Below, one piece after another: positions 9,335 to 64,000 of a DNA stretch of 64,000 nucleotides. The notes beneath the pieces were generated by a model, which was given only the letters and a program-made list of their open reading frames with translations, was not told the DNA's origin and ran no database searches. This DNA comes from Prorocentrum cordatum (Eukaryota). A program made the translations under genes and the position numbers. The stretch lies in assembly GCA_963575745.1 (NCBI GenBank), contig CAUYUJ010000281.1:434001-498000 (forward strand), in the 5' to 3' direction. How positions within the stretch are numbered: position 1 is the first letter of the stretch; every line of letters starts with the position of its first letter.

Positions 9335-9410
<76 letters not shown>

Positions 9411-9411
9411 G

Positions 9412-9443
<32 letters not shown>

Positions 9444-9590: not shown

Positions 9591-9621
<31 letters not shown>

Positions 9622-10695: not shown

Positions 10696-10719
10696 GTGCT
10701 AAGGGCTTATTACAGAACA

Positions 10720-31602: not shown

Positions 31603-32120
31603 TCAGTCGGGGCCGTCCGAGCCATCAACGACCGCCGTGATCAGCGGCTCCTGGACCTCCACATGGGCGAGGGGGGCTCGGACACCCTGCAAAACAACGG
31701 CACCCCGGGGCACTGCGGAGGGCGCTGACGCCGCCGACGTGGCGGCAGCCGAGGGCGTGGAGAAGGGAAGCCTCGCAGCGCGACAGCTGCGACACCCGCT
31801 GGCAGCCCGTCGGCCCGCTCGGCCGTGGCGGGCCCCGCACTCCCGTCGCGGGGGGGGCCCCCTCGTGCCACAGCGAGGGGGAGGAGGAGGCGGAGGAGGA
31901 GGAGGAGAAGGAGGAGGAGGAGGAGGAGGAGGAGGAGGAGGCCGCGGCGGGTTAGGCCGCGGCGTTCCCTCCCCATCGCCGGGCTCGACCGTAGCACGGG
32001 TCGCCCCCCCCGGGAGAGGTCGGCACCGCCCTTGGCCTCACGGGCCTGGACGCGTGCCAGAAGCGCCGGCAAACCTGGCGTGGGGATGCTGGAGCTTGCC
32101 ACGGCGGTGTCAGCGACCTC
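31603..32120 (-). CDS. Last two candidate exons of an unidentified gene: 32046-32120 (EVADTAVASSSIPTPGLPALLARVQ) and 31603-31686 (GVRAPLAHVEVQEPLITAVVDGSDGPD*)
   Basis: CAG|G acceptors (the second is gttgttttgcAG|G), a CAG|GC donor, an in-frame phase-0 junction and a TGA stop. Confidence 0.5.
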
Positions 32121-34590: not shown

Positions 34591-34927
34591 ACAAAGGGCT
34601 CGAGATACCTCAGCATCGTTCACGGGAGCCTCCAGCATGCCTCCGAGAAAGCCAGAAGGCAGCCCTAACACGGTTCCAAGTGCCCTTCGAGCCTCCCACG
34701 GCACTCCCGACAAGCCAACATCCGTCAACAACCGGTGGAAAATCAATGCTTTGGGGCGTTCCGGTTTTCGTTTCCAATGAGCCTCTGGGGCTTCAAGATA
34801 GCTCCCAAACGGCCCAAGAGAGCCCCACGAGGGGCCCAAGACGACCCCAACACGGCCCCAAGAGCGCCCAAGAAGTGTCCAAGAGCTGCCCCAGAGGCCC
34901 CCAAAAGGCCATCTTGGAGCTTCCGAC

Positions 34928-35125
34928 CCAGAGATCCGACGTCGCGATTTTTTCAATGCGGGGTCCCCAGAAGTCTCGACCCATTCACCGGGACCGGTTT
35001 TTCATCCTAAGTCGTTTTTTTGACGGTCCTGGGGCCCGGCGAGGGCCCCTAGGGGCCGAAATTTGCGAAATACCTCCGTCCAGATTTTATTCAGTACGTT
35101 GGGGGTCTGGGGAGGGCGGAGCCTA
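34928..35125 (+). mobile_element. Family D copy
   Basis: gagatccgacgtcgcgattttttcaatgcggggtccccagaagtctcgacccattc... shared with five other copies. Confidence 0.8.
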
Positions 35126-35129: not shown

Positions 35130-35286
35130 TAAGTCGGGTACGCCCCCCTGTAGGGGGATTTTGGGCGAAGAATTAAAAATACCCAAAAAGTACTCCAAGA
35201 ATGCCAAAAGATAGTCACAAATGGTCCCCCGATTATTGCCTGACTATTTTTGAATATTCCCCCTGTAGAGGGACAGGCCCGACTTA
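35130..35286. mobile_element. MITE family C, copy 3 (TA flanks)
   Basis: taagtcgggtacgcccccctgtaggggg ... ccccctgtagagggacaggcccgactta. Confidence 0.8.
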
Positions 35287-43024: not shown

Positions 43025-43124
43025 NNNNNNNNNNNNNNNNNNNNNNNNNNNNNNNNNNNNNNNNNNNNNNNNNNNNNNNNNNNNNNNNNNNNNNNNNNNN
43101 NNNNNNNNNNNNNNNNNNNNNNNN
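43025..43124. other. Assembly gap (100 N)
   Basis: Run of N. Confidence 1.
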
Positions 43125-44520: not shown

Positions 44521-44777
44521 GTAACGGGCGCGACCAGTGTGTTCAGTTCAGTTCAGTGCAGAAGCTCACTTCAGTTCAGTTCAGTCAGTTTATCTCGCGT
44601 GAAACAAACTCGGGCTACGCCAGGAAGAACAAACAAAGACGTCCAAACAATGACGAGATCGGTGGTTCAAAGATGGGGTCCTGAGAGATGGGGTCCTGAG
44701 GACAGGAATGGGGCCCAAGGGTGCATCTACATTGCTTGAGGCACAACGTCCTTTGGACCCCATCCCTCGGGACCTCA

Positions 44778-44990
44778 AAGATCCGATGTCGTGATTCTTT
44801 CAAGTCGGGGTCACCAGAAGCCTCGACCCATTCCCCGGGACCGGCTTTGCAGCCTGAGTCGCTTTTGACGGTCCCGAGGCCCGGCGAGGGCCCCTGGGGG
44901 CCGAAACTTGCGAAAACCCCCGCCTTCATTTTTTCAATAATTTGGATCTCTGGGGTAGTCCAGGGCGGTCTCAACAACCCTCCGCCCTCC
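44778..44990 (+). mobile_element. Family D copy
   Basis: Close match to 56346-56560. Confidence 0.8.
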
Positions 44991-45502
44991 CCCTCCTACT
45001 CCTCCTTCTCCTCCTCCTCCTCCTCCTCCTCCTCCTCCTCCTCCTCCTCCCCCTCCTCCTCCTCCTCCTCCTCCTTCTCCTCCTCCTCCTCCTCCCTTAT
45101 CCTTCCTCTCATCCTCCTCCCCTCCTCCCTCCTCCGCCGTTCCTCCTCTCCTTCCTCCTCCGCTCCTTCCCTCCGCACACTGTTCCTCCTCCTCTCTCCG
45201 CCTCCGACCTCCCTCCGCCTCCGCCTCTCCTCATTCCTCTCTCCTCACCCTACCTCCCCCCTTTCCGCTCCTCCTCTTCTCTCCTCCTCCGACCTCCCTC
45301 CGGCCTCCTCACTCCTCCTCCTCCTCCTCCTCTCATTACTTTTCTCCTCATCCTCCTACTCCCTTCTCCTCCTCCGATCATCCCGTCCTCACCTCCGCAT
45401 CATCATCAACACACGCGCTCGACACACCATCCGCCCACACCCCCCCCCTCTCCCCCTCTCTACATCCACCTCCTCTATCACTATGGCGAGCCGAGCCCGA
45501 GC

Positions 45503-45665
45503 CTCTGGCGGTGCGGCACCGGCCCGGGCCGAGGCGCGCCCTCCGCGCGCCTCGAGCCGCCGGCGCACACTCGGGCGCGCGTGCGGGCGGCGGCCGGCGG
45601 CCAGGCAGGGCAGCGGCAGCCGCCGCCGGGGGCGCGCCAGCCGCCGCGCGGGCGGCCATGGCCAT
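45503..45665 (-). CDS. Probable exon 1 of the dehydrogenase gene (Ala/Arg-rich N-terminal presequence, MAMAARAAAG...)
   Basis: ATGGCC start preceded by a ctAG|G candidate trans-splice acceptor; the AG|GC donor in phase 1 matches the phase-1 acceptor at 43769. Confidence 0.6.
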
Positions 45666-45896
45666 GCTCGAGCCTAGCGGCTCCTCCTCCCCCTCCTCCC
45701 CCGCCCACCTCCCTCCTCCTCCTCCTCCTCCTCCCTCCTCCCTCCTCCTCCTCCTCCTCCTCCTCCTCGACGACGACTGGCGCGAAGAGTATCTCCGCGC
45801 CACATGCCGCTTACGCCGCCTCGGCCCCGCACTGAGCAGGGCACGAGGGCGGCGCCTCCGACCGCTCGATGACGAACGGTATCAAAGCCAGACGAG

Positions 45897-48800
45897 TTAG
45901 CCCACCGAGGCAATCGACGCGGAGGAGGCGCCACGCGCAGACGACGTCTCCCCCGCGCGGATCGTTTCAGCGGACAGCAGGCGCTGGCGCAGCAGGTGCC
46001 AGCGCTTGTTCAGGCTGAAGCGTGCAGGATCACGCGACAAATTCTGCAAAACACGAAAGCCATGCGATCCAGGGAGAGGATTCCCCAGACAGGCTTGCTG
46101 GAACTGCTGGGAGACCTTCCTGCCCCCCAGCCCACACACAAGACAGGCGACGCACCACGCCCCGCCTGTGAGCTGGAAAAGATGACAGACGTGCTGGCGA
46201 TCGCCAGCGGCGGCGATGCGCACGCATGCCGAGTCAGCCTGGGCGAGGGCTCGTGGCGTACGGGTGGGAGGAGGAGGGAGGACCTCAAGGGGAGGAGGAA
46301 CCTTCACTCTCTGAGCCCTCGCCTTGACCTGCACATGCAACGAGTCACAGTCACACAAACGTGGCCCAACGCGCGCGCACCATCTGGCATAATGTCGGAG
46401 CACGCGCGCTTTGGACTGCCTGGTAGTACGAAGCTCAGCTGGCACTCTGGCGCGCTCCGTGCTCCACTTGGCCCAATCATCGGCCTCCCCGTTGCCGTCG
46501 CGACAAAACTGAGACACTCTACCCGCTTGCACTGCAGCACGCGTGGTGTGAGCTGGGACCTTGATTAGAGCGAAGGATTGCACTCCACCCCAGTCGTCAA
46601 TCCTGGCCCACACGAGTCTCCAAATTTCAGCCCAGGCGCTGCTGCTGCTACAGCAGTGCCTGCGACCGCGAACAAGCACGCCCTCGAAAACGAAACTCGA
46701 ATCGGTGTAAAAAGTGGCCCCAGGGGTGGCATGCTGGAGACCCCTGAGGAAAGCAGTGAGCTCGGCCGCATCGATGTCTACGAGCGTGCCAGGCAGAACT
46801 CCGACGAGCACAGACCGCACCTTAGCCGAATCGGCCTCGACAGCGACGACAGCCCACCCCGCGGCCTGAGCGTGGGCGGGCAGATCCTGGTCGTGCCAGG
46901 AGCCGTCCAAGAAAATATGCCCATCCATCTCTGTGGGACCGCCGCCGAACCATCTCTCGGGAGGTTTGGTGGAAGCAGGCAGCACAGCAGCAGGCACGAG
47001 CAGCCTCTCAGCAAAGAGGTTGGTGAGAGGGGAGGCGGCGGCAGCGCGCGACAGAGGGCCGAGGTAGGACGGAATATCCTTAGCCTCCATCACCTCCTCC
47101 TGCATTCCGCAAGCCGTGTGCCTGTGCCTGAGCGTGCACGGGTTCTGGCGGCAAGCCAAGCACACAGGCGAATCGGTCATTCCGGTGCTCCACTGTCGAT
47201 GCTGTGGCCACTGGCCGCCTGATACAACACTCTTGAGGTAGCCTTTTTCCGTAGGCAAGAGCTCCTTACCTTGCATGAGCGACACCAAAGGCTGAAACAA
47301 GCATCCGTCTTGCAGCTCTGGCATCTTTTCTGTCTGCGCGACGCGGGACCAGAGCCAACAATCAATAACTCGCACCAGCCATAGCCCTACCGTGCGAGGC
47401 GAGACTTCTTGGACAGAGATGCGTCCAAGCACAGAGTGAGACCATTGGAACCCTTGGACCAGGATCTCAAGGCGGATCGCCGTGGCAGCACAGGCCGAGA
47501 ACGGGCCACGAACGCTGCCCCAGGCGTTGCCACTCTGCTGGATTCGCTCATAGGCTTCAGTGATGCCTTGCTCGAGCAGCTTGGCTGGGAGCCACAAATC
47601 CCAAACGGCGCTGGCGAAGGCAAGCAGCGGGTCCATGTTGAGACGATACACAGGATCACACCGCGGGACCTCCGCAAGCATTAAAAGTAGCGCGATAGAT
47701 CTACCAGCCAAACTGTTGACTTGCACATAAGCTTGCATCGCACGAGCGGTGCGTAGCTGAGTGTTGTTGCTGCCATACACGTTGCCCCCATACTTGAGGG
47801 AGGCCAAGCAAGCAGCCGACACCATATGATGCACACTGCGTTTTTTTAATCACTTTGGCGAAACTGTGCAGCTTCCGCGCCCGAGCAATAGCTGGACGCA
47901 TCCTAGCAGCACGAGTCTCTTTGGCCATAACTCTAGCAAAGGCAAAGTCGATCCCCAAGTTGCGCTCACTGGAGACCCCTTTCAACTTGACAGACTTCAC
48001 CCGCTGCACTATCCGATCTCTCAACCCTTTATCCGACGCGACGACGCGACCCTTCCGACTGTGCACGACGAGACCAATCTTCTTGAGCTCGGTGTGCAGC
48101 AGGGTGGTGGCATTAGAGAGCTCGTGTTCTACATCAGTAGCGCGCCCTAGCTTTTGCAAACCGAAATCATCTACTACTATGCCCAAGTCAACGCGAGGGA
48201 ACGTAGCGCACACTCGATCTACAGGCAGCAAGAGCACTAGCTGCAGCATGACCGTTGCGAAGTGGCATCCTGGCAGCACCGCTTGGTTCGCGGCCAAGGG
48301 CTGCGATACAGCATCGTTGAGGGAGAGAACACGTGGGGACCTGTAGAGCTCCACGAGGAGCTTCAGCTGGCGAGTCGGAAAATTCGTACGCAGCGCCGCA
48401 GAGAGGAGCTCTGCGTGGGAGACGTGCTCGAAAGCCTTCTGCAAATCGAGCAACACCAGGCCAGAGCTGAAGCCTTTGGTGGCGGCCCATTCAGCTCCAG
48501 CTACTTGAATCCAGACTAACTTGTCGCTGCTGCGACCGCTGGTGGACCACCAGTACGGCCGCGGGTTGGCCTCTTGCCAGTCCTTGATCAGGGGACGCCT
48601 GAGCCGTCCCTGAATTCTGGCTAACATGTGGATTAGCGCTATTGGCCTCAGGCCACCTTCCCGTTTGGCCAGGAAAACGACCTTGGTCCAGAACCTGGGC
48701 CAAGAGGCAGCTCGCTCGATCTCTTCGAGCAGGTCCAGCAGCAACTCTAGGCCGGCATCGGAGAGGGCCAGAAGTTGTCGCGGCGTGACCTGATCAAAGC

Positions 48801-50350
48801 CACAGCCTGAAGCACGTGGGAAGGTGCCCAGACATTCTTTCAACTCTTGGAGACTGGGGCGAGGAAACTCAGGCCCTAGATCGCTTGGCCAAGGGATGCT
48901 GGACTCCTCCGCCCCCACCCTCCACCAGTGCGACCACTCCTCCTCCAATAAATCAACTTCCTGCTGCATGGTTGCAGGCTGCGCAGGCACACCAGCTCCG
49001 CTGGCGAAGGTGAAAGAGCTGGCGTGCCACGGCACAGGCGGCCTGGAGGTGGCGAAGAGCGCCGCTCCTCCGTTGATGCTATGACGCTGGACCCAGGACC
49101 GCCAGCCGTCGCGCTTGCTTTTTTTCAGCTTGCCTGAACGCTTGTTCAGCTTTGGTAGTGGCCACCACAGAGAGCGCAGAGACTAAATCGTACGGCAACA
49201 CCTGAGCAAGCGAGAGCAACGCCTTCCAAGGCGCAGCAACATGCGCCTCTACCTTACTGTCTTGACGTTGAAGCAGAGACGCAAGACGTAGATCTGGCAC
49301 TCGACGACAAGGTGGTTGCCAGGAGCCCATGGAGTGGAAGCACTGCGCCACCAGCCTCCACCAGAGAGCCTCAGGACTCAGCCTCGGGTATGGCAGCTTG
49401 CCAGGGCTGGGCGCCTTGCGCGTGACGAAGGAAGGCCCCTCAGCGCGCCCAGCATACTCAGGGTGCTCGTCCAGGCTGACGTCGTAGATGTCGGCCCAGT
49501 CTTTCTCGGCTGCTCGAATCCACTCTTGCCACATGCCATCTACATTGCCAGCAGCCGTCATGGAGACCTGCGCGTCTGCCCAGTACTGATCGGGGTCGTG
49601 ACGGCGACATCCAATCGGCAACTCAACTGGGAACCGCTTTGGCACCCGAGCCACTCGGTAGCACAACTGCTGCGCCACCTCGGGCTGAAGAGTGAGGAGC
49701 ACAGGGCTGTGAGGCTTGGTGCCAACTCCATGCACAAGCTCTGCCGTGGCCCCGTACTGCAGGGTGGCAGAGACTATAAAGAAATCCAGCACGCGCCCTT
49801 TCGACTGAGCCGAATTGCTGCAGGTCGCCACTGACGGAGCAACGATGGCGCCATCGATGGCCTCAACCCACCCAGAGCCATTAAGCTGATCAGGAGTCAT
49901 CTGAAAGTCACCATTGATAATGTACGGCATGTTGGCGATCTTGATGGCCTCGCCAACTGCATTGAGGACGGCCCAGTTCCTCGGGCCCAACTGCTCACCG
50001 TCGTGCAGGTAGACGTTGACCCACAGGAACCCGCACGGCGTGAGACCTGAAGCGTGAAGCGCCGAAGCCCTCCCGTTCGCGATGGTGACGGGAAGATGCT
50101 CCACCTCCGCCAGCCCCTGGTGTCCAGGGACTGCTTGAAGAAGACCGCCACTGCTGCCTCCTCTCCCTGTGGCCAGAGCTGGCTCCATTCTGGCGCGCCA
50201 GCCCGTGCCCTTCAACTTGGCCTCCCAAGACGCACACTGCCATTGCTCGACGTGGTGTTCTTGAACGGCTAAAGCATCGCAACTTTGCGCAACGGAGTGC
50301 CCAAGAAGAGCCTCCAGGCCGAGAAGGCCCGTGACGATGCTGGTAATCAT
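45897..50350 (-). CDS. LINE ORF2 in three frame segments, with frameshifts near 49122 and 47844
   Basis: APE endonuclease: AVQEHH, VNVYL, INGDFQ, VLDFF, PHSPV. RT: GLRPIAL, LLDLQKAFEHV, VLPGC, IVVDDF, RNLGIDF. RNase H: IFLDGS, AELTA, YTDS, KVPAH, GNGEADDWAK. Cys/His clusters CLAC...HRHTAC and CVACLVC. Confidence 0.92.
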
Positions 50351-50366
50351 CCTCCACCTCTGTTTG

Positions 50367-51374
50367 TCAAACCTGCTGGGCACCGCCTGCTGCCGAGGCC
50401 GCGTCGTCAGCCCGCAGCTTCTTGGAGGCCTGCACACGCACCTGGCTGAAGATGTCGGCGACCAGGCTGTGCTTGACGCCGTGCTTCTCGCCAAGCTCGG
50501 CAACCATGGCACTGCCCTCGTCCTCGTTCTCGGCGAGGTACTGGAGCAGGTCCTGATGAGCAAGCCTGGCACGCTCCTGCGCTGCGAGGGCGTCGGCACT
50601 GGGAGGCTGTGGCCCAGCAGGCGGCATGTCAGCGTCAGCCCCGCCAGCAGGAGGAGCAGAACCAGCTGGAGGAGCAGCGGGAGCCGCGGGGGCTGGCAGC
50701 GCCTCTCGAAGCGCGGGGACGACACCGGCGAGCGTGGCCGCAACCTGCTTGAGCGGCTCGGACTGCTCGAGCGCCGCCACGAGCTTCTGGAGCTGGCCGA
50801 GCGGGTCGGCGGGCGCCATGGTGGCGTAGGCGGCGGCGGCACGCGCAGCTGCAACCTTCTCAGCCTGCACAGCTGCGGCCAACTCCGCCTTGAGCTTGAC
50901 CGCATTAGCCACTGCTCTCCCCACTGCCTCCTGCGCCCTGTCATAGGCGCGCTGGGCCTTGACCTTTTTGTCCGAGGCCGTGTCTTGCTCGAGCCTTGCA
51001 GCCTTGGCGCTGGCTTTGGGCTCGTCGCTCTGGAGAGCGCGCTGCACCTTGATCTTGGCAACGAGCTTCGCAGGCCAGCCCTCGGTGGCGACCTCGAAGT
51101 CCTCCTGGGACATGGACGCGTAGACTTTGATCTGCTCCGTCGAGAGTTGCAACATGCGAGGCTGCGCTGCAGCCTTGGGATTGGGAGGCCCTTGCATCCA
51201 GGCGCCGAGAAGACGCTCGCCTGGCGCTTGACCTTGCCCCGCTTGACCACGTGCTGCTTGCCCAGGGAGACGCCCAGGCTTCCAGCCGCACCTGTAGCAA
51301 CTCGTTCTTGAAGCATAGTTGCGTTGAAACCCACACCTCTTGTTACAGCACGCCCAGCGAGAGAAATCTCCCAT
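50367..51374 (-). CDS. LINE ORF1, 335 aa, with an N-terminal RanBP2-type zinc finger and Ala-rich coiled-coil-like region
   Basis: MGDFSRWACCNKRCGFQRNYASRTSCYRCG approximates W-x-C-x(2-4)-C-x(3-4)-N-x6-C-x2-C; first ATG after the spliced leader; stop lies 17 nt before the ORF2 ATG. Confidence 0.85.
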   Translation of the reverse strand: MGDFSRWACCNKRCGFQRNYASRTSCYRCGWKPGRLPGQAARGQAGQGQAPGERLLGAWMQGPPNPKAAAQPRMLQLSTEQIKVYASMSQEDFEVATEGWPAKLVAKIKVQRALQSDEPKASAKAARLEQDTASDKKVKAQRAYDRAQEAVGRAVANAVKLKAELAAAVQAEKVAAARAAAAYATMAPADPLGQLQKLVAALEQSEPLKQVAATLAGVVPALREALPAPAAPAAPPAGSAPPAGGADADMPPAGPQPPSADALAAQERARLAHQDLLQYLAENEDEGSAMVAELGEKHGVKHSLVADIFSQVRVQASKKLRADDAASAAGGAQQV

Positions 51375-51487
51375 GTGCTCAGCGTAGTTGGAAGGCAAGG
51401 GCGTGCGGGCTGAAACCGCAGTTCTGTACCGATGTAAGTGAGGAAACTGACGGGGTCGCGAACCCCAGGCCAAAGAAAACTCTTGTC

Positions 51488-51530
51488 CTTGAGCGAAACG
51501 CCTACGGACTTGAGCCAAAATGGCTACGGA
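51488..51530 (-). other. Genomic copy of the dinoflagellate spliced leader (51509-51530, perfect) plus an adjacent degenerate copy (51488-51508)
   Basis: Reverse complement reads TCCGTAGCCATTTTGGCTCAAG followed by TCCGTAGGCGTTTCGCTCAAG. Confidence 0.95.
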
Positions 51531-51671
51531 CCTCCTCACCTCCTCCTCCTCCTCCTCCTCCTCCTCCTCCTCCTCCTCCTCCTCCTCCTCCTCCTCCTCC
51601 CTCCTCCTCTCCTCCTCCTCCTCCTCCTCCTCCTCCTCCTCCTCCTCCTCCTCCTCCTCCTCCTCCTCCTC
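51531..51671. repeat. (CCT)n tract separating the two divergent spliced-leader-capped inserts
   Basis: Directly visible. Confidence 0.95.
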
Positions 51672-51738
51672 ACCATAGCCATTTTGGCTCAAGCCATGTT
51701 GGCTCAAGCCATTTTGGCTCAAGTTGCCACCGCTCAAG
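51672..51738 (+). other. Spliced leader plus three stacked 15-nt relics
   Basis: ACCATAGCCATTTTGGCTCAAG (51672-51693), CCATGTTGGCTCAAG, CCATTTTGGCTCAAG and degenerate TTGCCACCGCTCAAG. Confidence 0.93.
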
Positions 51739-51802
51739 CCAGCTGGGCAGGAGCAGCCTGCCCACAGTTTTCGCGCTACATCCACACGCCGCAGTTGCCG
51801 CC

Positions 51803-52735
51803 ATGTCTTCCAGGACGCCCTGGGTTCGTAAAGGAGGAGTAGGAGCTCCAGTTGTTTCGCATTCAAAGTTGCTTTGCCCGCGTGGCAGGCCAGACTGTTG
51901 GATCTGGCCAAATAGAATTGCTTCTCAGCCGTTATGTAAGTGCGGCCTTCCTTGGCATGGGAAGAGTTCCCAGCCACTTCCGCCACCTCCGCCACCACCG
52001 TCAGCAGCGAAGTCTGGTCGCACAGAAAAGATCAAGGCTGAGGTAGTAGTTGGCAGGGAGAAGTTTCAGTCCAATCACAAGCACACTGTTCAGGTAGAAG
52101 CCGACAGTGTGAAGGAGCAGCCACCATCGCCGCCTCTTGTGGCAGTGAAGCCCAATCCCAAAGATAAGGCCGCCAGTCAGGTAGAAGCCAACAGAGAACA
52201 GGGCCAGGATTTCAAAGTCAGGCATCAGTTCAAGCTTTTGATCTCGGATGTCTTCCAGCAGTACGAACCGCCGATGCTGGATCAGCTGGGCCATTTCTTG
52301 GACAAGTACAAAGGGCAAGAACAGCTTCTTTATTTGGCAGTATGCGAGAAATTCAATGCGGAGCCTAAGGTAAAGGTTCAGATCACCAAGAAGGAAGACA
52401 AGCTTCCAGTTTTGGACAGCGATAGCGTGTCCGACTCACCTTCTGCCAGTATAAAACATGTCGACAGTCCTCGTTCGACTTCTCCAGAGTACGCTAGTAA
52501 GCGTGCAAAGGTTGGGCACAGCGATGCCGCCCCTTCCAGTGGTTCTGCCCCGTCCAATTCAAGACTTCTGGAGCTAAAGTGTGGTCTCCAGGATATCAAG
52601 AGCAAGCACCTCCAGCAGAAGCTGGAGACACTTCAGGAAGAGCTCAAACGTGCTAAGAATCAAACCGCAGCTTCATGCAGTGCGCCTGTTCCAAGGAGGA
52701 GCAGATCCAGCTCAGACTCCACTTCTTCAAAGTAA
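51803..52735 (+). CDS. Intronless 310-aa hypothetical protein in a retroposed unit (N-terminal Cys4 cluster, central helical motif, C-terminal coiled-coil-like segment)
   Basis: GCCGCCATG start 65 nt after the relics; non-repetitive open frame; CPRGRPDCWIWPNR...CKCGLPW, FQQYEPPMLDQLGHFLDKYKGQEQLLYLAVCEKF and LQQKLETLQEELKRAK. Confidence 0.8.
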   Translation: MSSRTPWVRKGGVGAPVVSHSKLLCPRGRPDCWIWPNRIASQPLCKCGLPWHGKSSQPLPPPPPPPSAAKSGRTEKIKAEVVVGREKFQSNHKHTVQVEADSVKEQPPSPPLVAVKPNPKDKAASQVEANREQGQDFKVRHQFKLLISDVFQQYEPPMLDQLGHFLDKYKGQEQLLYLAVCEKFNAEPKVKVQITKKEDKLPVLDSDSVSDSPSASIKHVDSPRSTSPEYASKRAKVGHSDAAPSSGSAPSNSRLLELKCGLQDIKSKHLQQKLETLQEELKRAKNQTAASCSAPVPRRSRSSSDSTSSK

Positions 52736-53904
52736 TTGGAGCAATTATGTTGGTAGTATCCAACTTTCTTTTCAGCGGCAGAATTTGTATTGCATCTTGG
52801 GCAAAATGGCAACTTGAGTATTGGCTTAGTGTGCAACATTCTCGGCTACAGGTTTTGGTAGAATCCTTTGTGTTGGTCATTTGCGTTTGGGTAGGACAGT
52901 TGTCAGCTACCCAGGGTTCTTTAATGTTCACGTCTTGTTTCCTTGGCCAGATTGGCAGTACTGTGAAGCAGGTAGCTTACTTGCAGTTTCTTCTTCATGC
53001 GCTAGTTGGGCAGTTGTATCCAGCCCAGTTTATTTTTACTCTTCAGGGGTCCAGGAAAGTCTGGCGAAGTAATCCCCTAGTAATCTCTCTACCCTTTGGG
53101 GGATGGTAGGTCTCGCTCTGCTAGGGGACTCCCATTAGTATGTGGGAAGAAAGTTTACCCCAGTGCATTGCAGTCTTGATCTCCTTCCCCTTCTTTGGTC
53201 CTTCTTTCTTCCCCCCTCCCTCCTTCCTCCCTCCAGACAGGTCAAGGAATTGGCAGCCAGGTCACAGGCGAAAGCAAGTGGCCTTCCCTGGCGGGTCTTG
53301 CCATGGTCTCACCATGCCCGAAAGTCCGAACCTGCAAGTTGGCGTTCAGGGATTGCTCTTGTCTGGTGTGGGGGATATTTGGTGGGTGGTATAGGATTAT
53401 CCGCCCCGTTCTGGGGAAGTTCTGCATTGATTCCGTTCTGGCCTGGGAACGGCCCATTAGAAGGTGGGCAGCGTTTAACCCGGACGAGTTTTGTTTCATG
53501 CTGTCCTGCTCCTCCTCTCCTCCTCCTGGGGTAAGGTTCTTGGCGCCGACTCGGAACTGGCAACGCCCCAGGCTTGGACTGGGGGTCAGTTGCTGTCCGC
53601 GGAACGCGCATGAGCTTTAGTTCAGCCCCGAAGCGAATGTCAATGTCCTCCTCCTCCTCCTCCTCCTCCCCCTCCTCCTCCTCCTCCTCCTCCTCCTCCT
53701 CCTCCTCCTCCTCCTCCTCCACTGCCGGGGCTCCGGGAGGGCGGTGATCTCGAGCCTAGCGGCTGCCCAGACCTTCCTCGAGGGCTACAAAAGAGCGCCA
53801 GGACTTCGACGGCTGAAATCCAATCGAGGCCTGAAGCAGCCCAGATAGGTCTAGAGGTCTGGAGGGCGTTTTTGTCAGCACTCTGGAAGGTCAAAGAAAT
53901 GACG

Positions 53905-54075
53905 GACCCAGAGATCGGATGCTCCAAAAAGATGGGAACGGGCGGTGTTTTTGAATGATTTGTCGGTCTCCCGGGGCCCTCGCCGGGCCTCGGGGCCGTC
54001 AAGAAGCAGCTCAGGGCGAAAAGCTGGCCCCAAGGAAGTGGTCCGAACCTCTGGGGCCCACGCCTCGAAAAAAGC
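53905..54075 (-). mobile_element. Family D, inverted degenerate copy
   Basis: ggggccctcgccgggcctcggggccgtcaagaagc.gctcagg is the reverse complement of the family D core. Confidence 0.65.
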
Positions 54076-56345: not shown

Positions 56346-56560
56346 CCCAGAGATCCGACGTCGTGCTCTTTTCAATACGGGGTCCCCGGAAATCTCGACC
56401 CATTCCCCAGGACCGGTTTTTCATCCTGAGTCGTTTTTGGACGGTCCCGAGGCCCGGCGAGGGCCCCTGGTGACCAAAATTTGCAAAAACCTCATTTATT
56501 TTTCAATACTTTGGATCTCTGGGGTATTCCAGGGCGGTCTCAACACCCCTCCGCCCTCCC
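56346..56560 (+). mobile_element. Family D copy
   Basis: Close match to the copies at 34928 and 44778. Confidence 0.8.
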
Positions 56561-57024
56561 CCTCCCCCTCCTCCTCCTCCCCCGCCCCCTCTCCCCTCCC
56601 CTCCTCCTCCCCGCTCCTCCTCCTCCTCCTCCTCCTCCTCCTCCTCCTCCTCCTCCCCTCTCCTCCTCCTCCCCTCCTCCTCTCCTCCACAATTACTCAA
56701 TATGAAAATACTCTCCCTCTTCCCCTGATGGCGTCCGGGTGATGGCCGCGCACCCTCCACGTACTGTTTTTTACACACAGGATTCCCGGGAAATCCCCGG
56801 AAACGACTCTCGCTGCGGCGCCGGCGTCATTTTTCCCCAAAATGCTGCTCTCGTTGAGGCGCCAGCCTCATTTCTGCTCCCGAATCGTTCCGAATCGTGC
56901 TCCCGCTGCAGCGTGGGCCTCATTTTCGGATCGGTGTTTGGCCTCCGTCGTTCAGGATGGCGTTCTCGCCCCAGCGCGGGCCTTTTTCTCGCGCGCCCAT
57001 CCGCCCGCCACCAACGCGCCGCAC

Positions 57025-57744: not shown

Positions 57745-58529
57745 AGAGGTCTCGACTCCTTCCCCAGCATCCCGAGTTGCTCTTCCATGGCCCTGCGGCC
57801 CGGCGAGGGCCCCTGAAGGCCAGAAACTGCGACAAGCCTCCGTCTTGACTTTCTCAATGTGTCGGATCTCTGGGCCTGTGTCTGTGCGCAACCCGAAGCC
57901 TCACCACGCCGACCCCGCCTGGAACTCCCACCGCCACTCGCCCGGCGCGCGCGCGGGGGAGGCCCCCGCCTTCCGCACGAGCGCGGCGCCCGCGCCCTCT
58001 GCGGCGCTGCCCAGCCCCTGGAGGGACTCCTCCGGGGGCGGTGACGACGACGGAGAGGGGAGGAGGAGGAGGAGGAGGAGGAGGAGGAGGAGGAGGAGGA
58101 GGAGGAGGAGGAGGAGGAGGGGGAGGCAGGAGGAGGAGGAGAAGGAAGGAGTAAGAAGAAAAGAGAAAGAGACTCCTGGGGGCGGCTGCCAGCGCGGTGC
58201 GGCGGCTCCGGTGAGGAGGGCGGCTGGCGGGTGGGGCGGCGGCGGCGCGCCGGCGGCGGTCGCGGCATCGACGGCGGTGACGACCACCACGAGGGCGGGG
58301 GCGGCGACGACGACGGAAAGGGGAGGAGGAGGAGGAGGAGGAGGAGGAGGAGGAGGAGGAGGAGGAGGAGGAGGAGGAGGAGGAGGAGGAGGAAAAGAGG
58401 AGGCGGAGGAGGAGGAGGATAGGAGAGCGGAGAAGTAGGCGGACGAGGTTGAGGAGAGGCGGAGGCAGCGGAGGAGGAGGAGGACCGGATGGATGCGGCG
58501 ACGAAGACGACGACGGAGACCGCGGCGAC

Positions 58530-59479: not shown

Positions 59480-60412
59480 TCCTTCCTATCCTCCTGCTCC
59501 TCCTCCTGCTGCTCCTCCTCCTCCTCTTCCCTTCCTTCCCTCCTTCCTGCCTGCCTGCCTTCCTTCCCTCCTCATCCTCTTCCTGTCACTGCCGCTGTCG
59601 GCATCGGAGCTCGAATCGAATGCTGTCGTCGCCTCCTTCAACTCCTCCTCCTCCTCCTCCTCCTCTTTCGTGTCCTTCTCATCCTCCTCCTGCTCCTCCT
59701 CCTCCTCCTCTTCCTCCCTGCTCCTCCTCCCACCTCCTCCTTCTCCTTCTGATTCATCAGCACCTCCTCCTCCTCCTCCGCCTCCTCCCCTTGTTCCTCC
59801 TCCTCCTCCTCCTCCTCCTCCTCCTCCTCTTGCTCCTCCTCCTCCTCCTCCTCTTGCTCCTCCTCCTCTTCCTCCATTCTTCCTCTTCTTTATCATCATC
59901 GTTAACACCATCCGCGTCATCAGCATCAGCAGCATCATCATTAGCATTATCATCATCAGCATCAGCATAATCATCGTCAGCATCGTCAGCACCACCACCA
60001 TCACAATCAACAACATCATTATCATCATGATCATCAGCATCATCACAGCAGCACCAACATCAGCACCAGCATCATCACCAGCATGCTCATCAACATCATC
60101 AGCAGCATCAGCATCAGCATCATCAGCATCATCGCCATCATCACCAGCATCTGCATCAGCATCATCACCATCATAAACATCATCATCATCAACATCACCA
60201 TCCGCATCAGCAGCATCATCACCATCATCAACATCATAATCAGCATCAGCATCAGCATCATCATCACCATCATCAGCATCGTCATCATCATCATCATCAT
60301 CATCATTATCATCATCATCATCATCGTCGTCGTCGTCATCATCATCAGCATCATCATCAGCAGCATCAGCATCAGCATCAGCATCAGCATCATCATCATC
60401 ATTATCATCATG
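59480..60412. repeat. Compound (CCT)n followed by (CAT/CAG)n microsatellite
   Basis: Directly visible. Confidence 0.92.
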
Positions 60413-60778: not shown

Positions 60779-61200
60779 AGGAACCAGAGATCTTCGTCCG
60801 AGAGCGCTTCTGGCCGCATCCGCCGCAGAGCTTTTCTTGCCCGGACCGCTGTGCCAGCAGGGCCTGGCTGGGGCTGTCAGGCCCCCTGAGGGCCCAGAGC
60901 ACTGCACCGCACGCTGAAGAGCACCCCCTCTCCCCCCCCCCCGCCAGCCAGGGTCCCCGCAGCCGGGATACTGCCGAGCAGAGCCTGGGGAAGCCCGAAA
61001 GAGCGACGAAGGGCGGAGGCTTAGACCCATGGCTGCAGGCTTCCCTGGGCGCGCCCAAGACCTCGGCCCCGTGGAGGGGCCCCCTCCGTCCTCCAAAGGA
61101 CTGTGGAGGGGGGCCCCCTCCGTGGCGGGGGGCCCCCTCCACAGCCCCCAGGGGGGCCCCCTCCAGAGGAGGAGGAGGAGGAGGAGGAGGAGGAGGAGGA

Positions 61201-64000
61201 GACGAGCGTAAGGGGGGCGCGAGTCCGACCTAGGCCGGCGGGTGGAAAAGGAAAGCAGGCGGCCGGGGCGCGCTGGCGGCGGCCTCCTGCTGCGCCTCGA
61301 TGGCGCTCATGATGCCGCCGTGCGGGGCCGCTCTTTCAATCGGTGGCGGCGGGGCAGGAGCGGAGGAGGGGGCCGAAGCTGGACAAGGCAGAAAAGGGAA
61401 GCGGGGTGGCATGAAATCAGCATAATGATGAAAGGACGGGTGAGAAACAATGCTAGGACACACAGGCGCAGACGCGGAGGGAGGGGGAGCAGGCGGGGGG
61501 CAGGCAGCGGCAGGGGCAGAGCACATCGTCGAACGAGGGAAAGACGGGGGAGAGACAGCACTCAGGCGGATGCAAGGCTGCAAGGACGAGGCTGTGCGTG
61601 GAGCGGGGGGCTCGTGGGGAGAGGAGCGCCGAGCATCGGGAATGGGAAAAGCGGGCACCCTGGAATGGATTTTTCCAGGCGGGGAGTCAGGGCGGGAGGG
61701 AGTCCATGACGCGGAACGCGGAGAGGCAAGACATAGCCTCTGAGACCGCGGAGTCGCCGTGGACGCGCGACTCGTGGCAACACGAGAGGAGGAAGCCGCC
61801 ATTCGAGAAGCACCCGCAGTAGTCGGCGCCGACGGGGTAGCCATCAGGGTTGAGGGAGCCCGCATCTGTGAGCACGGCGACGCACCCCATGGAGTCGTCG
61901 ACCAGATCCAGCCGCGGGGAGAGTATCTGGCAACTCGTGAAGCGAGAGGCTTCGCAGTATCATCCCCACAATTTGCGATGGCCAATGGCTCAGGGTTCGA
62001 GGAGCACCCATGAGCAGGGCTTTGCGATCTGACCTTATCCGCGGGTGGGGGGCACGTGGGAAGAGCCGCGCACATCCCAGCAGAGACACCCTCGCAATAT
62101 ACTCTAAGAACCTGAGGCGGCGGGTTCGAGGAGCACCCGCCGTCAGGACTTCGCGTTCTGAACTCAGCAGGAAGACGAGACCCCTCCTCGAAACATACTC
62201 GATGAGCCTGAACAGTCGGGTTCGAGGAGCACCCGCTGACAGGACTTTGCGTTCTGACCTCGACGGGCGTCGGTCCCTCCCAGTCGCAATCGTACATGTC
62301 ATGCGAGCGGCCAGCGTGCTGAGGGGCGGCCACGGCAGGCGATGGGGTCCCAGGCGTCGCGAGAGGAGTACACGGGGAGAAGTCGAATGACACCAGATCG
62401 TCCGCGTCCGTGTCAGAGTCCCGCATCTCGGTGATCAACGTCGGCGTCAGGTCAGGGCCGCTGGAAGCGTCTGTGTCAACCACGTCGGCACAGGACGGCG
62501 AGGATGAAGACGAGGAAGAAGACGAAGAGGAGGAGGACGGGCGCCGAGTACGTCTCGTCATAAAGCGGACGCTCCATTGTAGTGGTGAGTCGTCAGGCAG
62601 GGCACCAGTCGAGGCCATCCGCATGCTCCTCACCCCAGCCAGTGCAGCACTCTGCGCTTCCTGCTCCGAGATCGGCCAGTCGGGGATCAGACGGATCGTG
62701 TTGTACATGCTCACCGCGGCGGCCATGAAGCCGAAGGCGGCAGCGGAGGGCGCCACGAGGCCCCACCTCTCAGCGAGCTCCAGCGGGAAGCCATGCCCGA
62801 GGGCACGGCGCAGCGCAGCATGCATCCGCACGCACCTTGAGTAGTGAAGAAGCGAACCGACACAGTTGTGACACCCCAGGGCGCAGCCGCGCCTTCCTGC
62901 AGGGTGGGGGATGCGAGATGAGGTAAGCCAGCCATCGCACCAGGTCCTCAGAGCGGCCCACACCCATGAGCAGGGGCACAGGTTGAGCGTGGCTGAGACT
63001 CGCTGCCAATCGATTAGGTCGAGGAGAGCACCGTGACGAGGAAAGAAGAACTTCTGAAGTCGTGCGCGGAGGAAGTCGTGCAGCGGCGTGGCAGAGGCCG
63101 CCAAGTCACGAAGGGCACGATGAACAGCAGGCTGGGGGCGGGGGCGGACACCAGGAGGGGCCTCGGCAGCACTGGCAAGCGCTTCACGAGCACGAGGGAG
63201 AAGCGATGTCCACGGCCCAGCGGGGGCGGGCCCATCCAAGGCCAGAGCCAGGTTCTCCACAATGGCAGGGCTCCGCCAGAAACCAGGGCACGGCGCGCCA
63301 GATCCGACCATGCATAGCGTCCTGGAGTCCGCGAGCTCACACGCGTGGGACCGCATGTCGTCCAGCAGCCTCTGGTGCTCGGGGAAGGTGTGGGCGGCCG
63401 CTCGCAGCAGGGACGCCGCGTTGAGGTGAGCCCAGCTCAGAGCGCGCGGGCCGCGCCAGCGGTCCATCTGCACCCAGGCACTCAGCGGGAAGGTGCCCAG
63501 CGCAACACGAAAGACCTGTGCAAGTACACCCAGCTCGCATGCGAGGACGGCTCGTGGCATCCAAAAGAACTGGCTGACATAAGAGAGTGTGCTGACAATA
63601 CGAGTATTGTAGATGATGGAAGAGAGGCTAGCAGGGGTGGCGCCTCGTCCGACTGCTCGAGCCCGCAGCCGCGCCTTAGCAAGCGGGTCAATCCAGGGCT
63701 TCATAGAGTCCACAGAGGGTCCCAACCATATCCCAAGGTACAGGAGCTCCGAAACGATCTTCATGGCGGACCAGTGGGGCACCGTACGAGAGAGCCTCCC
63801 AAGAGCTTCCGACGCGAGAGCGGGACTGAATGAGGCTGACAGGGGCACAATATGGCACTTCTGAATCTTCAGAACAAGGTTCGCCACCAACTCCGCCTCC
63901 CTCATCACGAGGGCGACCCAGGCCAAGTCCTCTATGCTCACCATCGTGCCACCGATGTCGCCGGCGCACGCGCGCGCGAGCCCGCGGCCCGTCTCTTCGA
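61201..64000 (-). mobile_element. 3' part of a second LINE (RT C-terminal region, Cys/His motif, long tail); continues beyond the window
   Basis: RACAGDIG at the YADD position, LKIQKC, LLYLGIWLGP, YNTRIVSTLSY and GWLTSSR...CALGC...HYSRC; the 3' end abuts (TCC)n. Confidence 0.85.

What the first reader, a model, noticed from the sequence alone, without database searches (positions are those of the whole stretch)
45710..53720. Two spliced-leader-capped inserts head-to-head in (CCT)n tracts, without poly(A): microsatellite-targeted retroposition?
Seen: the order is (CCT)n - LINE on minus - 141-bp (CCT)n - SL unit on plus - (CCT)n. Neither insert has an A-tail, and they have opposite polarity relative to the repeat, so a single element-templated tail cannot explain all the tracts. 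The second LINE also ends directly in (TCC)n at ~61200. Inference: the insertion machinery prefers GGA/CCT microsatellites, and any target-site duplication is hidden in the repeat. Caveat: CCT tracts are very abundant here, so chance insertion is possible.
Basis: partly seen in the sequence, partly recalled or inferred. Interest (0 to 1): 0.75.

Follow-up and report, generated by a model that had tools for sequence, protein, structure and literature searches.

The report
Leader-capped LINE plus retrogene block
In a dinoflagellate genome a jumping gene (LINE) and a copied cellular gene, both made from leader-capped RNAs, lie head to head among CCT repeats inside one 16-base target duplication, which points to LINE enzymes as makers of dinoflagellate retrogenes.

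Summary
On the + strand the order is: CCT-rich tract, a 5.7-kb LINE on the minus strand, (CCT)47, a 2-kb leader-bearing gene copy on the plus strand, then (TCC)25. Neither insert has an A-tail. The LINE (APE endonuclease, RT, RNase H) starts with two dinoflagellate spliced leaders (SL). The gene copy starts with one SL and two truncated relics.

It lies outside the outer tracts and has sharp edges, so I read it as a target-site duplication. The founding integration therefore hit unique DNA, not a microsatellite. The left tract is most simply the LINE's own (GAG)n tail.

Route, not resolved:
- One twin-primed LINE/mRNA chimera, about 0.4.
- Nested insertions into a tract, about 0.3.

Microsatellite association is partly supported. 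Locally, two insertions in CCT/GGA runs have a chance of 0.4-1%. In environmental dinoflagellate DNA, 11 of 66 genomic SL sites abut a microsatellite, against 2.4% background. No whole genome was held, so the genome-wide test could not be run.

This is a new variant of known kinds. Side find: giant-virus contigs carry DNA-encoded SL 46-48 bases after their early promoter.

The parts
45667..45682 (+). Left copy of the 16-bp direct repeat CTCGAGCCTAGCGGCT (target-site duplication of the whole block)
   Evidence: Two exact copies and no other match with up to 2 mismatches. It is the only exact direct repeat of 16 nt or more, 1 kb or more apart, without flanking similarity.
45683..45768 (-). CCT-rich tract, which is (GAG)n-rich on the LINE's strand. 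It abuts the LINE 3' end and the left duplication directly, and is read as the LINE's 3' tail.
   Evidence: Its status as a tail is inferred.
45769..45896 (-). LINE 3' untranslated region (128 nt), ending ...CCAGTCGTCGTC
45897..50353 (-). LINE ORF2: APE-type endonuclease, reverse transcriptase, RNase H and a C-terminal region. In the window it is read in three frames (49079-50353, 47701-49182, 45897-47849) because of two 1-nt T-run differences near 49119 and 47841.
   Evidence: Pfam RVT_1 E 9.3e-07 and RNase_H E 9.3e-06. Colinear with the 1,545-aa P0001. EEP family in 23 of 29 aligned members. Model pLDDT 86.6, with best fold matches to AP endonucleases and L1 EN. Short-read contigs lack the two extra T (table 4).
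50367..51374 (-). LINE ORF1 (335 aa). By my reading it has an N-terminal W-x-C-x4-C...C-x2-C zinc-finger-like motif, followed by an Ala/Lys/Glu-rich (AKE-rich) stretch that may be helical (composition only; I ran no coil prediction).
   Evidence: No Pfam family at E up to 0.01. The motif is my reading of the translation.
51375..51487 (-). LINE 5' untranslated region
   Evidence: An X1 contig covers 51217-51527 with 1 difference (table 8, record 7).
51488..51530 (-). Two full-length spliced leaders in tandem at the LINE 5' end: a 22-nt canonical one (51509-51530) and a 21-nt diverged relic (51488-51508)
   Evidence: (period 22, 2.0 copies).
51531..51671 (.). (CCT)47 between the two leader-bearing 5' ends
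   Evidence: 47.3 copies, 94% matches.
51672..51723 (+). Spliced leader (ACCATAG..., one G>A change) plus two 15-nt relics truncated at the leader's internal AG
51724..53645 (+). Processed gene copy. The conserved coding part is about 52139-52735 (uncharacterised protein family), followed by about 910 nt of 3' region.
   Evidence: ORF. P0002 is 91% identical to residues 113-310 of the window ORF, its own full length (197 aa), and P0003 is named Prorocentrum cordatum. Contigs of four runs cover it at 90-99% identity up to 53632.
53646..53720 (.). (TCC)25 at the 3' side of the gene copy
   Evidence: 25 copies, 97% matches.
53721..53748 (.). 28-nt unique spacer between (TCC)25 and the right duplication. 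It is either the end of the copied RNA or the 5'-truncated body of an older (GGA)n-tailed element.
   Evidence: No second copy in the window.
53749..53764 (+). Right copy of the 16-bp direct repeat
61166..63998 (-). Second RT-like open frame (61233-63998, runs off the window), with (GAG)12 at 61166-61201 about 30 nt past its stop. Not shown to belong to the same phenomenon.
   Evidence: No Pfam hit. Atlas lead only. No similarity to the first LINE.

Best explanation
Core claim, about 0.8 likely. The 8,066 bp between the two 16-mers (45683-53748) are the product of LINE-type target-primed reverse transcription into a unique site, which duplicated 16 bp. Both passengers were copied from mature, trans-spliced RNAs:
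- a full-length mRNA of an APE/RT/RNase H LINE whose lineage has gone through at least two leader-capped cycles, and
- a cellular mRNA that has gone through at least three.
The LINE carries a (GAG)n-type tail instead of poly(A).

Route I think most likely, about 0.4: a single twin-primed event.
1. After staggered nicks 16 bp apart, the top-strand end primed on the (GAG)n tail of the LINE RNA. 'AG/CT' is shared at that joint.
2. The bottom-strand end primed inside the 3' region of a second RNA, the gene transcript. That is why its poly(A) is missing.
3. Both cDNAs ran to the capped 5' ends and were joined 5'-to-5'.
4. The central (CCT)47 is junction filler. It may have been copied from the (GAG)n tail of another LINE RNA after a template jump, which gives the right polarity, and it may have expanded later.

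Shown: the anatomy, the domains, the duplication, the absence of A-tails, and the general leader-microsatellite association.
Inferred: the tail status of the left tract, the order and number of events, and the origin of the central tract.
For: - Exact 16-mer pair with sharp edges, outside the outer tracts. There are only 2 matches in the window with up to 2 mismatches. Of 21 exact direct repeats of 16 nt or more lying 1 kb or more apart, 20 sit in longer dispersed repeats and this is the only one without flanking similarity.
- Both 3' ends face the duplications and both leader-bearing 5' ends face each other. Twin priming requires this. Nested models give it only 1 time in 2 to 4.
- The LINE is of the class that makes such duplications: APE fold (Foldseek E about 1e-11 to AP endonucleases and human L1 EN, model pLDDT 86.6), PF03372 in 23 of 29 aligned relatives, RT and RNase H, colinear with one 1,545-aa relative.
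- The two frame breaks are single-T differences that short-read contigs lack (table 4), so the copy is young or intact.
- Leader arrays of the relic type and no SL-RNA intron after them (compare the 29 SL genes).
- In mammals, twin priming on a second RNA is the proposed source of antisense RNA/LINE-1 and mRNA/LINE-1 chimeras within one insertion (PMC13174262, passages read).
- Microsatellites abutting genomic SL 5' ends are common elsewhere: 11 of 66 against 2.36%; 0 of 66 just downstream of the SL; 0 of 29 SL genes. A junction tract is therefore not a special plea.
Against: - A 141-bp microsatellite is not the short microhomology or filler usual at twin-priming joints.
- All three tracts are CCT on the + strand. 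One split tract (the nested model) explains this for free, whereas here the right tract's polarity is a 1-in-2 coincidence.
- Twin-primed segments are usually 5'-truncated. Here both are full length.
- The tail of this LINE family rests on one copy, because no other copy with flanks could be fetched.
- Whether the gene family's transcripts really contain (UCC)n and the 28-mer is unknown.
- The assembly could not be checked with spanning reads. Only short contigs, cut at the repeats, were available.
Confidence: 0.4

Rival explanations
1. Nested insertions into one pre-existing tract. This is closest to the first reader's idea. There are two versions of the founding event that made the 16-bp duplication: a 5'-truncated element (the 28-mer plus a long (GGA)n tail, on the minus strand), or the gene copy itself with a junction tract. 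The LINE, and in the first version also the gene copy, later landed in that (GGA)n.(CCT)n tract. Their own duplications are hidden in the repeat. Priming would be by annealing of a repeat in the RNA's 3' region to the nicked repeat: (GAG)n of the LINE to the CCT strand, (UCC)n of the mRNA to the GGA strand. This would explain both polarities and the missing A-tails.
For: - All three tracts have the same polarity on the + strand, as expected of one tract split twice.
- Each insert is flanked on both sides by the same repeat.
- The local chance of two hits in CCT/GGA runs is 0.4-1%.
- General excess of microsatellites at SL 5' junctions.
- The gene copy's 3' region holds further CCT-rich stretches at about 53190-53235 and 53500-53530.
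- Microsatellite-specific APE-type LINEs exist in animals: Waldo, Mino, Kibi, Koshi (PMC3812793, passages read).
Against: - Needs two or three independent events in one tract of about 300 bp.
- Head-to-head with 3' ends outward is only 1 of 2 to 4 possible arrangements.
- No second copy of the 28-mer in the window.
- No intermediate allele seen.
- The junction microsatellites elsewhere are of many unit types and often only 12-30 nt long. That fits a general junction phenomenon better than a CCT-specific endonuclease.
Confidence: 0.3
2. One long read-through RNA (5' transduction). A progenitor locus already held gene copy, tract and LINE. A transcript that started upstream of the LINE, antisense to the gene copy, was not trans-spliced. 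The LINE's own protein copied it from its (GAG)n tail and truncated it at the 28-mer. The leaders are then relics only.
For: One duplication around the whole block, with the LINE tail next to it. The LINE protein would act on the 3' end of its own RNA, as is usual for LINEs (established knowledge of L1, recalled).
Against: It only moves the question to the progenitor locus, which still needs twin priming or nesting, and it adds one more event. The outer LINE leader is a perfect 22-mer, as expected of a freshly capped RNA rather than an old relic. No second copy of the arrangement could be sought.
Confidence: 0.08
3. Chance neighbourhood. Two unrelated retro-insertions happen to lie beside abundant CCT tracts, and the 16-mer pair is unrelated to them, for example a short dispersed motif.
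For: - CCT/GGA runs are very common: about one per 2 kb, 5.8% of bases. All simple repeats cover 10.6%.
- The finding was picked after the fact.
- Another 16-mer pair (8353/10666) that looked like a duplication proved to be part of a 3-copy 45-nt motif.
Against: - Four of four junctions lie within 8 nt of a run.
- The 16-mer has sharp edges and no flanking similarity, unlike the 8353 family.
- Its two copies sit exactly at the outer edge of the left tract and 28 nt from the right tract.
- Independent excess of repeats at SL junctions in other dinoflagellate DNA.
Confidence: 0.1
4. Assembly artefact: contigs wrongly joined at the CCT repeats.
For: The window is from a scaffolded assembly, with 100 N at 43025-43124. 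It carries two homopolymer differences from short-read contigs. No read or contig spanning a tract was available.
Against: The tracts are only 75-141 bp long. Matching unique 16-mers on the two outer sides would not arise from mis-joins and tie the left and right halves to one locus. There is no N inside the finding.
Confidence: 0.04
5. The LINE is a spliced-leader-gene-specific element, like SLACS, CZAR, CRE or NeSL-1, sitting in an SL RNA gene. The leader in front of it would then be target DNA, not a cap.
For: Leader sequence lies directly upstream of the LINE.
Against: No SL-RNA intron follows the LINE or lies anywhere in the window: 0 matches with up to 3 mismatches to the intron start seen in 29 environmental SL genes. 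The leaders are in tandem like retrogene relics. Upstream lies (GGA)47, not an SL-gene promoter. The endonuclease is APE-type, not restriction-like.
Confidence: 0.02

Closest known systems
DinoSL-tagged retrogenes of dinoflagellates (recycled processed cDNAs; Slamovits and Keeling 2008, not read, as described in PMC7245778, PMC5585692 and PMC6050394, of which I read passages)
   Same: DNA-encoded 22-nt leader at the 5' end, followed by 15-nt relics cut at the leader's internal AG. This indicates repeated rounds of transcription, trans-splicing and re-integration.
   Different: - One of the two leader-capped copies here is itself a full-length autonomous LINE, with two full-length leaders.
- A target duplication and the junctions are visible.
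- There is no A-tail.
- In the passages I read, those papers give neither insertion-site features nor the enzyme. They say the RT source is unknown and lean to LTR elements.
Twin-primed LINE-1 insertions and antisense RNA/LINE-1 chimeras of mammals (Ostertag and Kazazian 2001, not read; PMC13174262, passages read)
   Same: Two reverse-transcribed segments in opposite orientation, 3' ends outward, inside one target duplication. The second template is another RNA, primed internally, so it has no poly(A).
   Different: Both segments are full length up to their caps. The joint is a 141-bp microsatellite rather than microhomology. The LINE tail is (GAG)n, not poly(A). The organism and LINE family are far removed.
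Microsatellite-specific APE-type LINEs: Waldo (ACAY), Mino (AC), Kibi (TC), Koshi (TTC), and Dong (TAA) (Kojima and Fujiwara 2003 and 2004, as summarised in PMC3812793)
   Same: An APE-type LINE flanked on both sides by the same simple repeat in one polarity, without an A-tail.
   Different: - Only one copy could be examined.
- The duplication of the block is unique sequence outside the repeats.
- A non-LINE mRNA copy shares the site in the opposite polarity.
- Clade membership was not tested.
LINEs with simple-repeat 3' tails (for example the I factor with (TAA)n and CR1 with an 8-nt repeat; recalled, from no call)
   Same: The element ends in a short tandem repeat that abuts the downstream target duplication.
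   Different: The (GAG)n tail here rests on a single copy. The same repeat also lies at the 5' junction.
Spliced-leader-gene-specific retrotransposons SLACS, CZAR, CRE and NeSL-1 (recalled, from no call)
   Same: Leader sequence lies immediately upstream of a non-LTR element.
   Different: No SL RNA gene remainder. The endonuclease is APE-type, not restriction-like. The leaders are in tandem.

Membership tests
APE-type non-LTR retrotransposon (LINE) | N-terminal apurinic/apyrimidinic-like (EEP) endonuclease domain in ORF2 | tested here: met
   The window piece itself has no Pfam hit. However, 23 of 29 aligned members match PF03372 (best E 1.3e-10). Conserved E37, Y120, D154, D195 and H220 columns. 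AF2 model pLDDT 86.6. Foldseek PDB best matches are AP endonucleases and human L1 EN, E about 1e-11, TM on target 0.6-0.69.
APE-type non-LTR retrotransposon (LINE) | Reverse transcriptase domain downstream of the endonuclease in the same ORF | tested here: met
   RVT_1 E 9.3e-07, 29.2 bits, which is 0.4 bit under Pfam's curated cut-off of 29.6. The three window pieces are colinear with one 1,545-aa protein, P0001, carrying EEP, RVT_1 and RNase_H.
APE-type non-LTR retrotransposon (LINE) | Target-site duplication of variable unique sequence flanking the insertion | tested here: met
   Exact 16-bp duplication, but around the LINE plus the gene copy together.
APE-type non-LTR retrotransposon (LINE) | 3' tail (poly(A) or simple repeat) shared by copies | tested here: inconclusive
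   An 86-nt (GAG)n-rich tract lies between the 3' UTR and the duplication. No second copy with flanks could be fetched.
DinoSL-tagged retrocopy | DNA-encoded spliced leader(s) at the 5' end, not followed by the SL-RNA intron | tested here: met
   for both inserts. There are 0 matches to the intron start in the window.
DinoSL-tagged retrocopy | Intron-containing or leaderless parent gene elsewhere | not testable with these tools
   No genome is held. Relatives P0002 and P0003 are known only as proteins.
Microsatellite-specific LINEs (Waldo, Mino, Kibi, Koshi, Dong) | Most copies inserted at one position and in one orientation of a given repeat unit | not testable with these tools
   No genome. 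No relatives in viral or metagenome contigs.
Microsatellite-specific LINEs (Waldo, Mino, Kibi, Koshi, Dong) | Target-site duplication made of the repeat itself | tested here: not met
   The only detectable duplication is unique sequence outside the tracts. A hidden one for a nested second event cannot be excluded.
Microsatellite-specific LINEs (Waldo, Mino, Kibi, Koshi, Dong) | Placement in the R1, Tx1/L1 or R4 clades | not tested
   No reference set of clade RT sequences was available. PDB sequence searches gave only E 0.6-0.8 to R2 proteins.
Twin-primed LINE/RNA chimera | Two cDNA segments in opposite orientation, 3' ends outward, within one target duplication | tested here: met
Twin-primed LINE/RNA chimera | Joint of the two cDNAs by microhomology or short filler | tested here: not met
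   The joint is a 141-bp (CCT)47. Later expansion is possible but not shown.
SL-gene-specific retrotransposons (SLACS, CZAR, CRE, NeSL-1) | Insertion inside an SL RNA gene, and a restriction-like endonuclease | tested here: not met
   No SL intron. APE fold.

The most novel reading that the evidence does not exclude
Dinoflagellate retroposition is done by LINE-type target-primed reverse transcription that does not need poly(A). Priming and joining would use simple repeats: the LINE's own (GAG)n-type tail, repeat stretches in mRNA 3' regions, and tails of other LINE RNAs reached by template jumps. Each event would then leave or use a microsatellite at its junctions. This would explain three things together:
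- why genomic spliced-leader sites abut microsatellites about 7 times more often than background (about 24 times by the stricter measure),
- why retrogenes lack A-tails, and
- part of the huge microsatellite load of these genomes.
The leader-capped LINE would carry its start signal with it, because the leader becomes its heritable 5' end.
Probability: 0.25. Interest if true: 0.8.

Novelty: new variant of a known kind. Interest (0 to 1): 0.62.

Why it matters
More than a fifth of dinoflagellate genes are reported to be leader-tagged retrocopies. Yet reviews state that the enzyme and mechanism are unknown and lean towards LTR elements (PMC5585692 and PMC6050394, passages read).

This locus gives a direct, testable handle:
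- a young, probably intact APE/RT/RNase H LINE that is itself leader-capped, and
- a leader-capped cellular retrocopy beside it, inside a single 16-bp duplication. That duplication is the signature of LINE-type integration, not of LTR integrase.

The leader-microsatellite junction excess seen in environmental contigs suggests a general rule that can be checked on any dinoflagellate assembly. If it holds, it links two hallmark features of these genomes: rampant retroposition and very abundant simple repeats.

Tried and rejected
- Other LINE copies: the search for related loci with the ORF2 C-terminal piece found no relative in viral contigs (8 pattern matches, none confirmed) or in metagenome contigs (96 pattern matches, none confirmed). 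tblastn of the LINE, LINE2 and gene-copy proteins against the 126 metagenome loci gave no hits.
- Sequencing runs: no RNA holder is listed. Of the 8 runs listed, 4 were laid. They are short contigs that the tool cuts at the repeats (45675-45782, 51528-51683 and others). No tract is bridged, and no empty-site joint (about 45682 to 53765) is listed. One low-depth joint (45458 to 53509, depth 2.4) lies between low-complexity stretches, and I did not rely on it.
- Sequence searches of the PDB with the EN, RT and LINE2 pieces and with a 2-row profile gave nothing meaningful. The fold search was needed instead.
- Pfam gives nothing for ORF1, for the window's own EN piece or for LINE2.
- The 28-mer has no second copy in the window.
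- The 8353/10666 16-mer pair, first noted as a possible second duplication, is part of a 3-copy motif of about 45 nt.
- Similarity beyond the 16-mer ('GGGCGG' upstream of both copies) was judged chance.
- Phase of the repeat across the gene copy: uninformative, because the ends are ambiguous.
- Relic-bearing SL sites are not significantly more often repeat-adjacent than others: 3 of 9 against 8 of 57, Fisher P 0.16.
- Literature: searches listed no paper on leader-capped LINE copies or on microsatellites at retrogene junctions. I saw listings, abstracts and selected passages only, and no supplements. The repeat tables in the supplements of the Prorocentrum cordatum genome paper (PMC10666404) may bear on CCT abundance.

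Full report
**What the window is.** The DNA is about 60% G+C and very rich in simple repeats. All perfect simple repeats of 12 bp or more cover 10.6% of it, and CCT/GGA runs alone cover 5.8%. [quoted passage not shown] The gene copy's product is 86% identical, over a third of its length, to a protein that a source names Prorocentrum cordatum. That fits the high G+C reported for that genome (PMC10666404, passages read). No whole genome is held for the window.

**The observation.** It is correct at the coordinates given. The elements on the + strand are:
- a CCT-rich tract, 45683-45768;
- a LINE on the minus strand, 45769-51487;
- the LINE's two leaders, 51488-51530;
- (CCT)47, 51531-51671;
- a leader plus two truncated relics on the plus strand, 51672-51723;
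- a gene unit running to 53645;
- (TCC)25, 53646-53720.

The leader core occurs four times in the window, all at these two heads. The chance expectation is 0.12, and 0 of 100 shuffles reached four. Neither insert is followed by an A-run.

**The LINE.**
- ORF1 has 335 aa.
- ORF2 is read in three frames in the window. The pieces carry RVT_1 (E 9.3e-07, 0.4 bit under Pfam's cut-off) and RNase_H (E 9.3e-06, above the cut-off).
- All three pieces are colinear with a single 1,545-aa protein, P0001 (28-41% identity). P0001 has EEP, RVT_1 and RNase_H hits.
- The N-terminal piece belongs to a large family: 2,115 representatives at E up to 0.001 and 691 at E up to 1e-10.
- Of 29 aligned members, 23 match PF03372. 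The window's own piece does not.
- The predicted structure has mean pLDDT 86.6. Its best PDB matches are AP endonucleases and the human LINE-1 endonuclease, at E about 1e-11.
- The two frame breaks coincide with single-T differences at T-runs (47841 and 49119) that short-read contigs of run X1, and at 49119 also X2, do not have (table 4). The copy is therefore young, and it may be intact if these are assembly errors.

**The leaders.**
- The LINE's outer leader is a perfect 22-mer. The inner one is a 21-nt full-length but diverged relic.
- The gene unit has a full leader with one G>A change and two 15-nt relics cut at the leader's internal AG. This is the classic mark of repeated recycling (PMC7245778, passages read).
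- Neither array is followed by the SL-RNA intron that follows the leader in 29 environmental SL genes. The window has no match to that intron start.
- The leaders are therefore caps of retro-copied RNAs. They are not target DNA of an SL-gene-specific element.

**The gene unit.**
- Its conserved coding part (about 52139-52735) is 91% identical to a 197-aa protein from a JGI source. Its function is unknown.
- Contigs from four runs cover the unit at 90-99% identity as far as 53632, which is 13 nt before the (TCC)25. The unit therefore reaches the tract.

The exact 16-mer CTCGAGCCTAGCGGCT lies at 45667-45682, directly left of the left tract. It lies again at 53749-53764, 28 nt right of the right tract.
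- I listed all exact direct repeats of 16 nt or more lying at least 1 kb apart. There are 21 pairs.
- Nineteen lie inside longer dispersed repeats seen by self-BLAST.
- One more pair (8353/10666) proved to be part of a 3-copy motif of about 45 nt.
- Only this pair has sharp edges and no flanking similarity.

I read it as a target-site duplication of the whole 8,066-bp block. Three consequences follow:
1. The integration was of the staggered-nick, LINE type.
2. The founding event hit unique DNA, not a microsatellite.
3. The left and right halves belong to one locus, which argues against mis-joins at the repeats.

**How the block arose.** Three routes fit.

Route (a): one twin-primed event.
- The two ends of a staggered break each prime reverse transcription, one on the LINE RNA's (GAG)n tail and the other inside the 3' region of a second RNA.
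- The two cDNAs are joined 5'-to-5'.
- This route requires exactly what is seen: 3' ends outward next to the duplications, capped 5' ends inward, one duplication, and no poly(A) on the second RNA.
- Such antisense RNA/LINE-1 and mRNA/LINE-1 chimeras are described in mammals and ascribed to twin priming (PMC13174262, passages read).
- Against it stand the 141-bp repeat at the joint and the full length of both segments.

Route (b): nested events.
- Either an older 5'-truncated element (the 28-mer plus a (GGA)n tail) or the gene copy with a junction tract made the duplication. The LINE, and in the first case also the gene copy, later landed in the tract.
- This explains for free why all three tracts are CCT on the + strand.
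- It needs two or three hits in about 300 bp, and it gets the head-to-head layout only 1 time in 2 to 4.

Route (c): one read-through RNA from a progenitor locus. This only moves the problem back one step.

I put these at about 0.4, 0.3 and 0.08. Chance neighbourhood gets about 0.1 and artefact about 0.04.

**Is there a microsatellite preference?**
- Locally, 6.2-10.0% of positions outside the finding lie within 0-15 nt of a CCT/GGA run. Two insertion events in runs therefore have a chance of 0.4-1.0%. The four junctions are 1, 8, 1 and 1 nt from a run. The finding was chosen after the fact, so this is moderate evidence.
- As a substitute for the genome-wide test, I scanned public metagenome contigs for the exact 21-nt leader.
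- I set aside 29 SL genes, 30 sites of the giant-virus type and 7 sites too close to a contig end. That left 66 sites that look like retro-insertions.
- Of these, 11 have a perfect simple repeat of 12 bp or more ending within 10 nt upstream of the leader. The background at other positions of the same loci is 2.36% (binomial P 4e-7).
- The controls are 0 of 66 just downstream of the leader, 0 of 29 SL genes and 1 of 30 virus-type sites.
- Drawing one random position per locus gave a mean of 1.49. None of 20,000 draws reached 11.
- Earlier variants of the count gave 7 of 67 against 0.44% under a stricter 20-nt periodicity rule, and 10 of 66 against 2.35%.
- The repeats are of many kinds (AT, GT, CT, ATC, GGGT, ACACC). 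Some are only 12-30 nt long and bounded by unique DNA. In several, the repeat pattern runs 1-3 nt into the leader.
- Caveats: I cannot tell DNA-derived from RNA-derived contigs. Assemblies under-represent repeats. The species are unknown.

I conclude that an association between leader-bearing 5' junctions and microsatellites is real and general. It is not CCT-specific. These data cannot say whether the repeat is the target or is made or brought in at the joint.

**The second LINE.** The open frame 61233-63998 (minus strand) has no Pfam hit and no similarity to the first LINE. It has only an Atlas lead to clusters with RVT_1 and zf-RVT. About 1.4 kb of non-coding-looking sequence with internal 76-nt repeats lies between its conserved part and (GAG)12. 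That tract also borders a G6C5 palindromic motif that precedes four other GGA tracts. I do not count this junction.

**Comparison with what is known.**
- Leader-tagged retrogenes are well known.
- Microsatellite-specific APE LINEs are known in animals (PMC3812793).
- Twin-primed chimeras are known in mammals.
- My searches (listings, abstracts and passages only) listed nothing on a leader-capped autonomous LINE, on a LINE/retrogene block within one duplication in a dinoflagellate, or on the junction-microsatellite excess.
- Two papers state that the enzyme behind dinoflagellate retroposition is unknown, and one of them favours LTR elements. This locus argues for LINE-type integration.

**Verdict.** This is a new variant of known kinds, and I score interest at 0.62. 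The decisive tests need the whole assembly and long reads.

**Seen in passing.** The same 21-nt leader occurs in 119 stretches of IMG/VR, nearly all in contigs named as giant-virus genome bins.
- Of 130 distinct sites, 108 have AAATTGA within 100 nt upstream. In 103 of these it starts 46-48 nt before the leader's first base, which is A in 125 of 130 sites.
- AAAATTGA is the Mimiviridae early-promoter word.
- The 600 nt after leader-bearing promoters have median G+C 35%, against 17% after leader-less promoters in the same loci. That is 90 and 199 sites, Mann-Whitney P 2e-17. The loci were chosen for holding a leader, so the 90/289 share is not a genome share.
- This looks like viral mimicry of the host's leader, capture of leader-capped host cDNAs behind viral promoters, or both.
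- Searches listed no paper on it.

Noticed in passing
Loci L127-L206 (IMG/VR) and L002, L003, L016-L018, L030, L045-L047, L053, L061-L063 and others (metagenome contigs): Giant-virus genome bins carry many DNA-encoded copies of the dinoflagellate spliced leader, placed 46-48 nt after the start of an AAATTGA early-promoter word (103 of 130 distinct sites). The first base is A in 125 of 130. The genes behind them are much richer in G+C than those behind leader-less promoters (35% against 17%, P 2e-17). This suggests leader mimicry, capture of host leader-capped cDNAs, or both. Searches listed no paper on it.
   Followed up: partly
window 30300-30349, 31040-31086, 31850-31892, 33000-33048, 61103-61165: A G/C palindromic motif (GGGGGGCCCCC(C)TC...CACAG-like) directly precedes five (GGA)n tracts. 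Two of the five belong to one local 0.5-kb duplication. It may be another repeat-associated element.
   Followed up: no
window 7652-7838(-), 34925-35112, 44771-44955, 56346-56493, 53947-54041(-), 57797-57874: A dispersed repeat family of about 190 bp. Two copies (44776-45128 and 56348-56688, 85% identical over 355 bp) include the CCT tract that follows them. Run depth is very high from 53963 on.
   Followed up: partly
window 8310-8400, 10623-10713, 35214-35304: A three-copy motif of about 45 nt (…TTGAATATTCCTCCTGTAGAGGGACAGGCCCG…). I first mistook two of its copies for a target duplication.
   Followed up: yes
window 47841 and 49119: The window has one extra T in two T-runs compared with short-read contigs of runs X1 (both sites) and X2 (49119). 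These two letters alone split the LINE's ORF2 into three frames. They are likely residual homopolymer errors of a long-read assembly (table 4).
   Followed up: partly
window 51494 (minus-strand leader relic): Contigs of runs X1, X2 and X6 share the leader and part of the diverged relic, then run on into a different sequence (the same 30-nt loose end in all three). So another locus carries this relic variant (table 7).
   Followed up: no
window 43025-43124: A run of 100 N (scaffold gap) lies 2.5 kb upstream of the finding.
   Followed up: no
window 1174-1442, 9246-9812, 59917-60411: Long imperfect (CAT/TCA)n tracts. Three environmental leader sites (L054, L112, L114) abut (ATC)n-type repeats of similar make-up, possibly from related organisms.
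   Followed up: no
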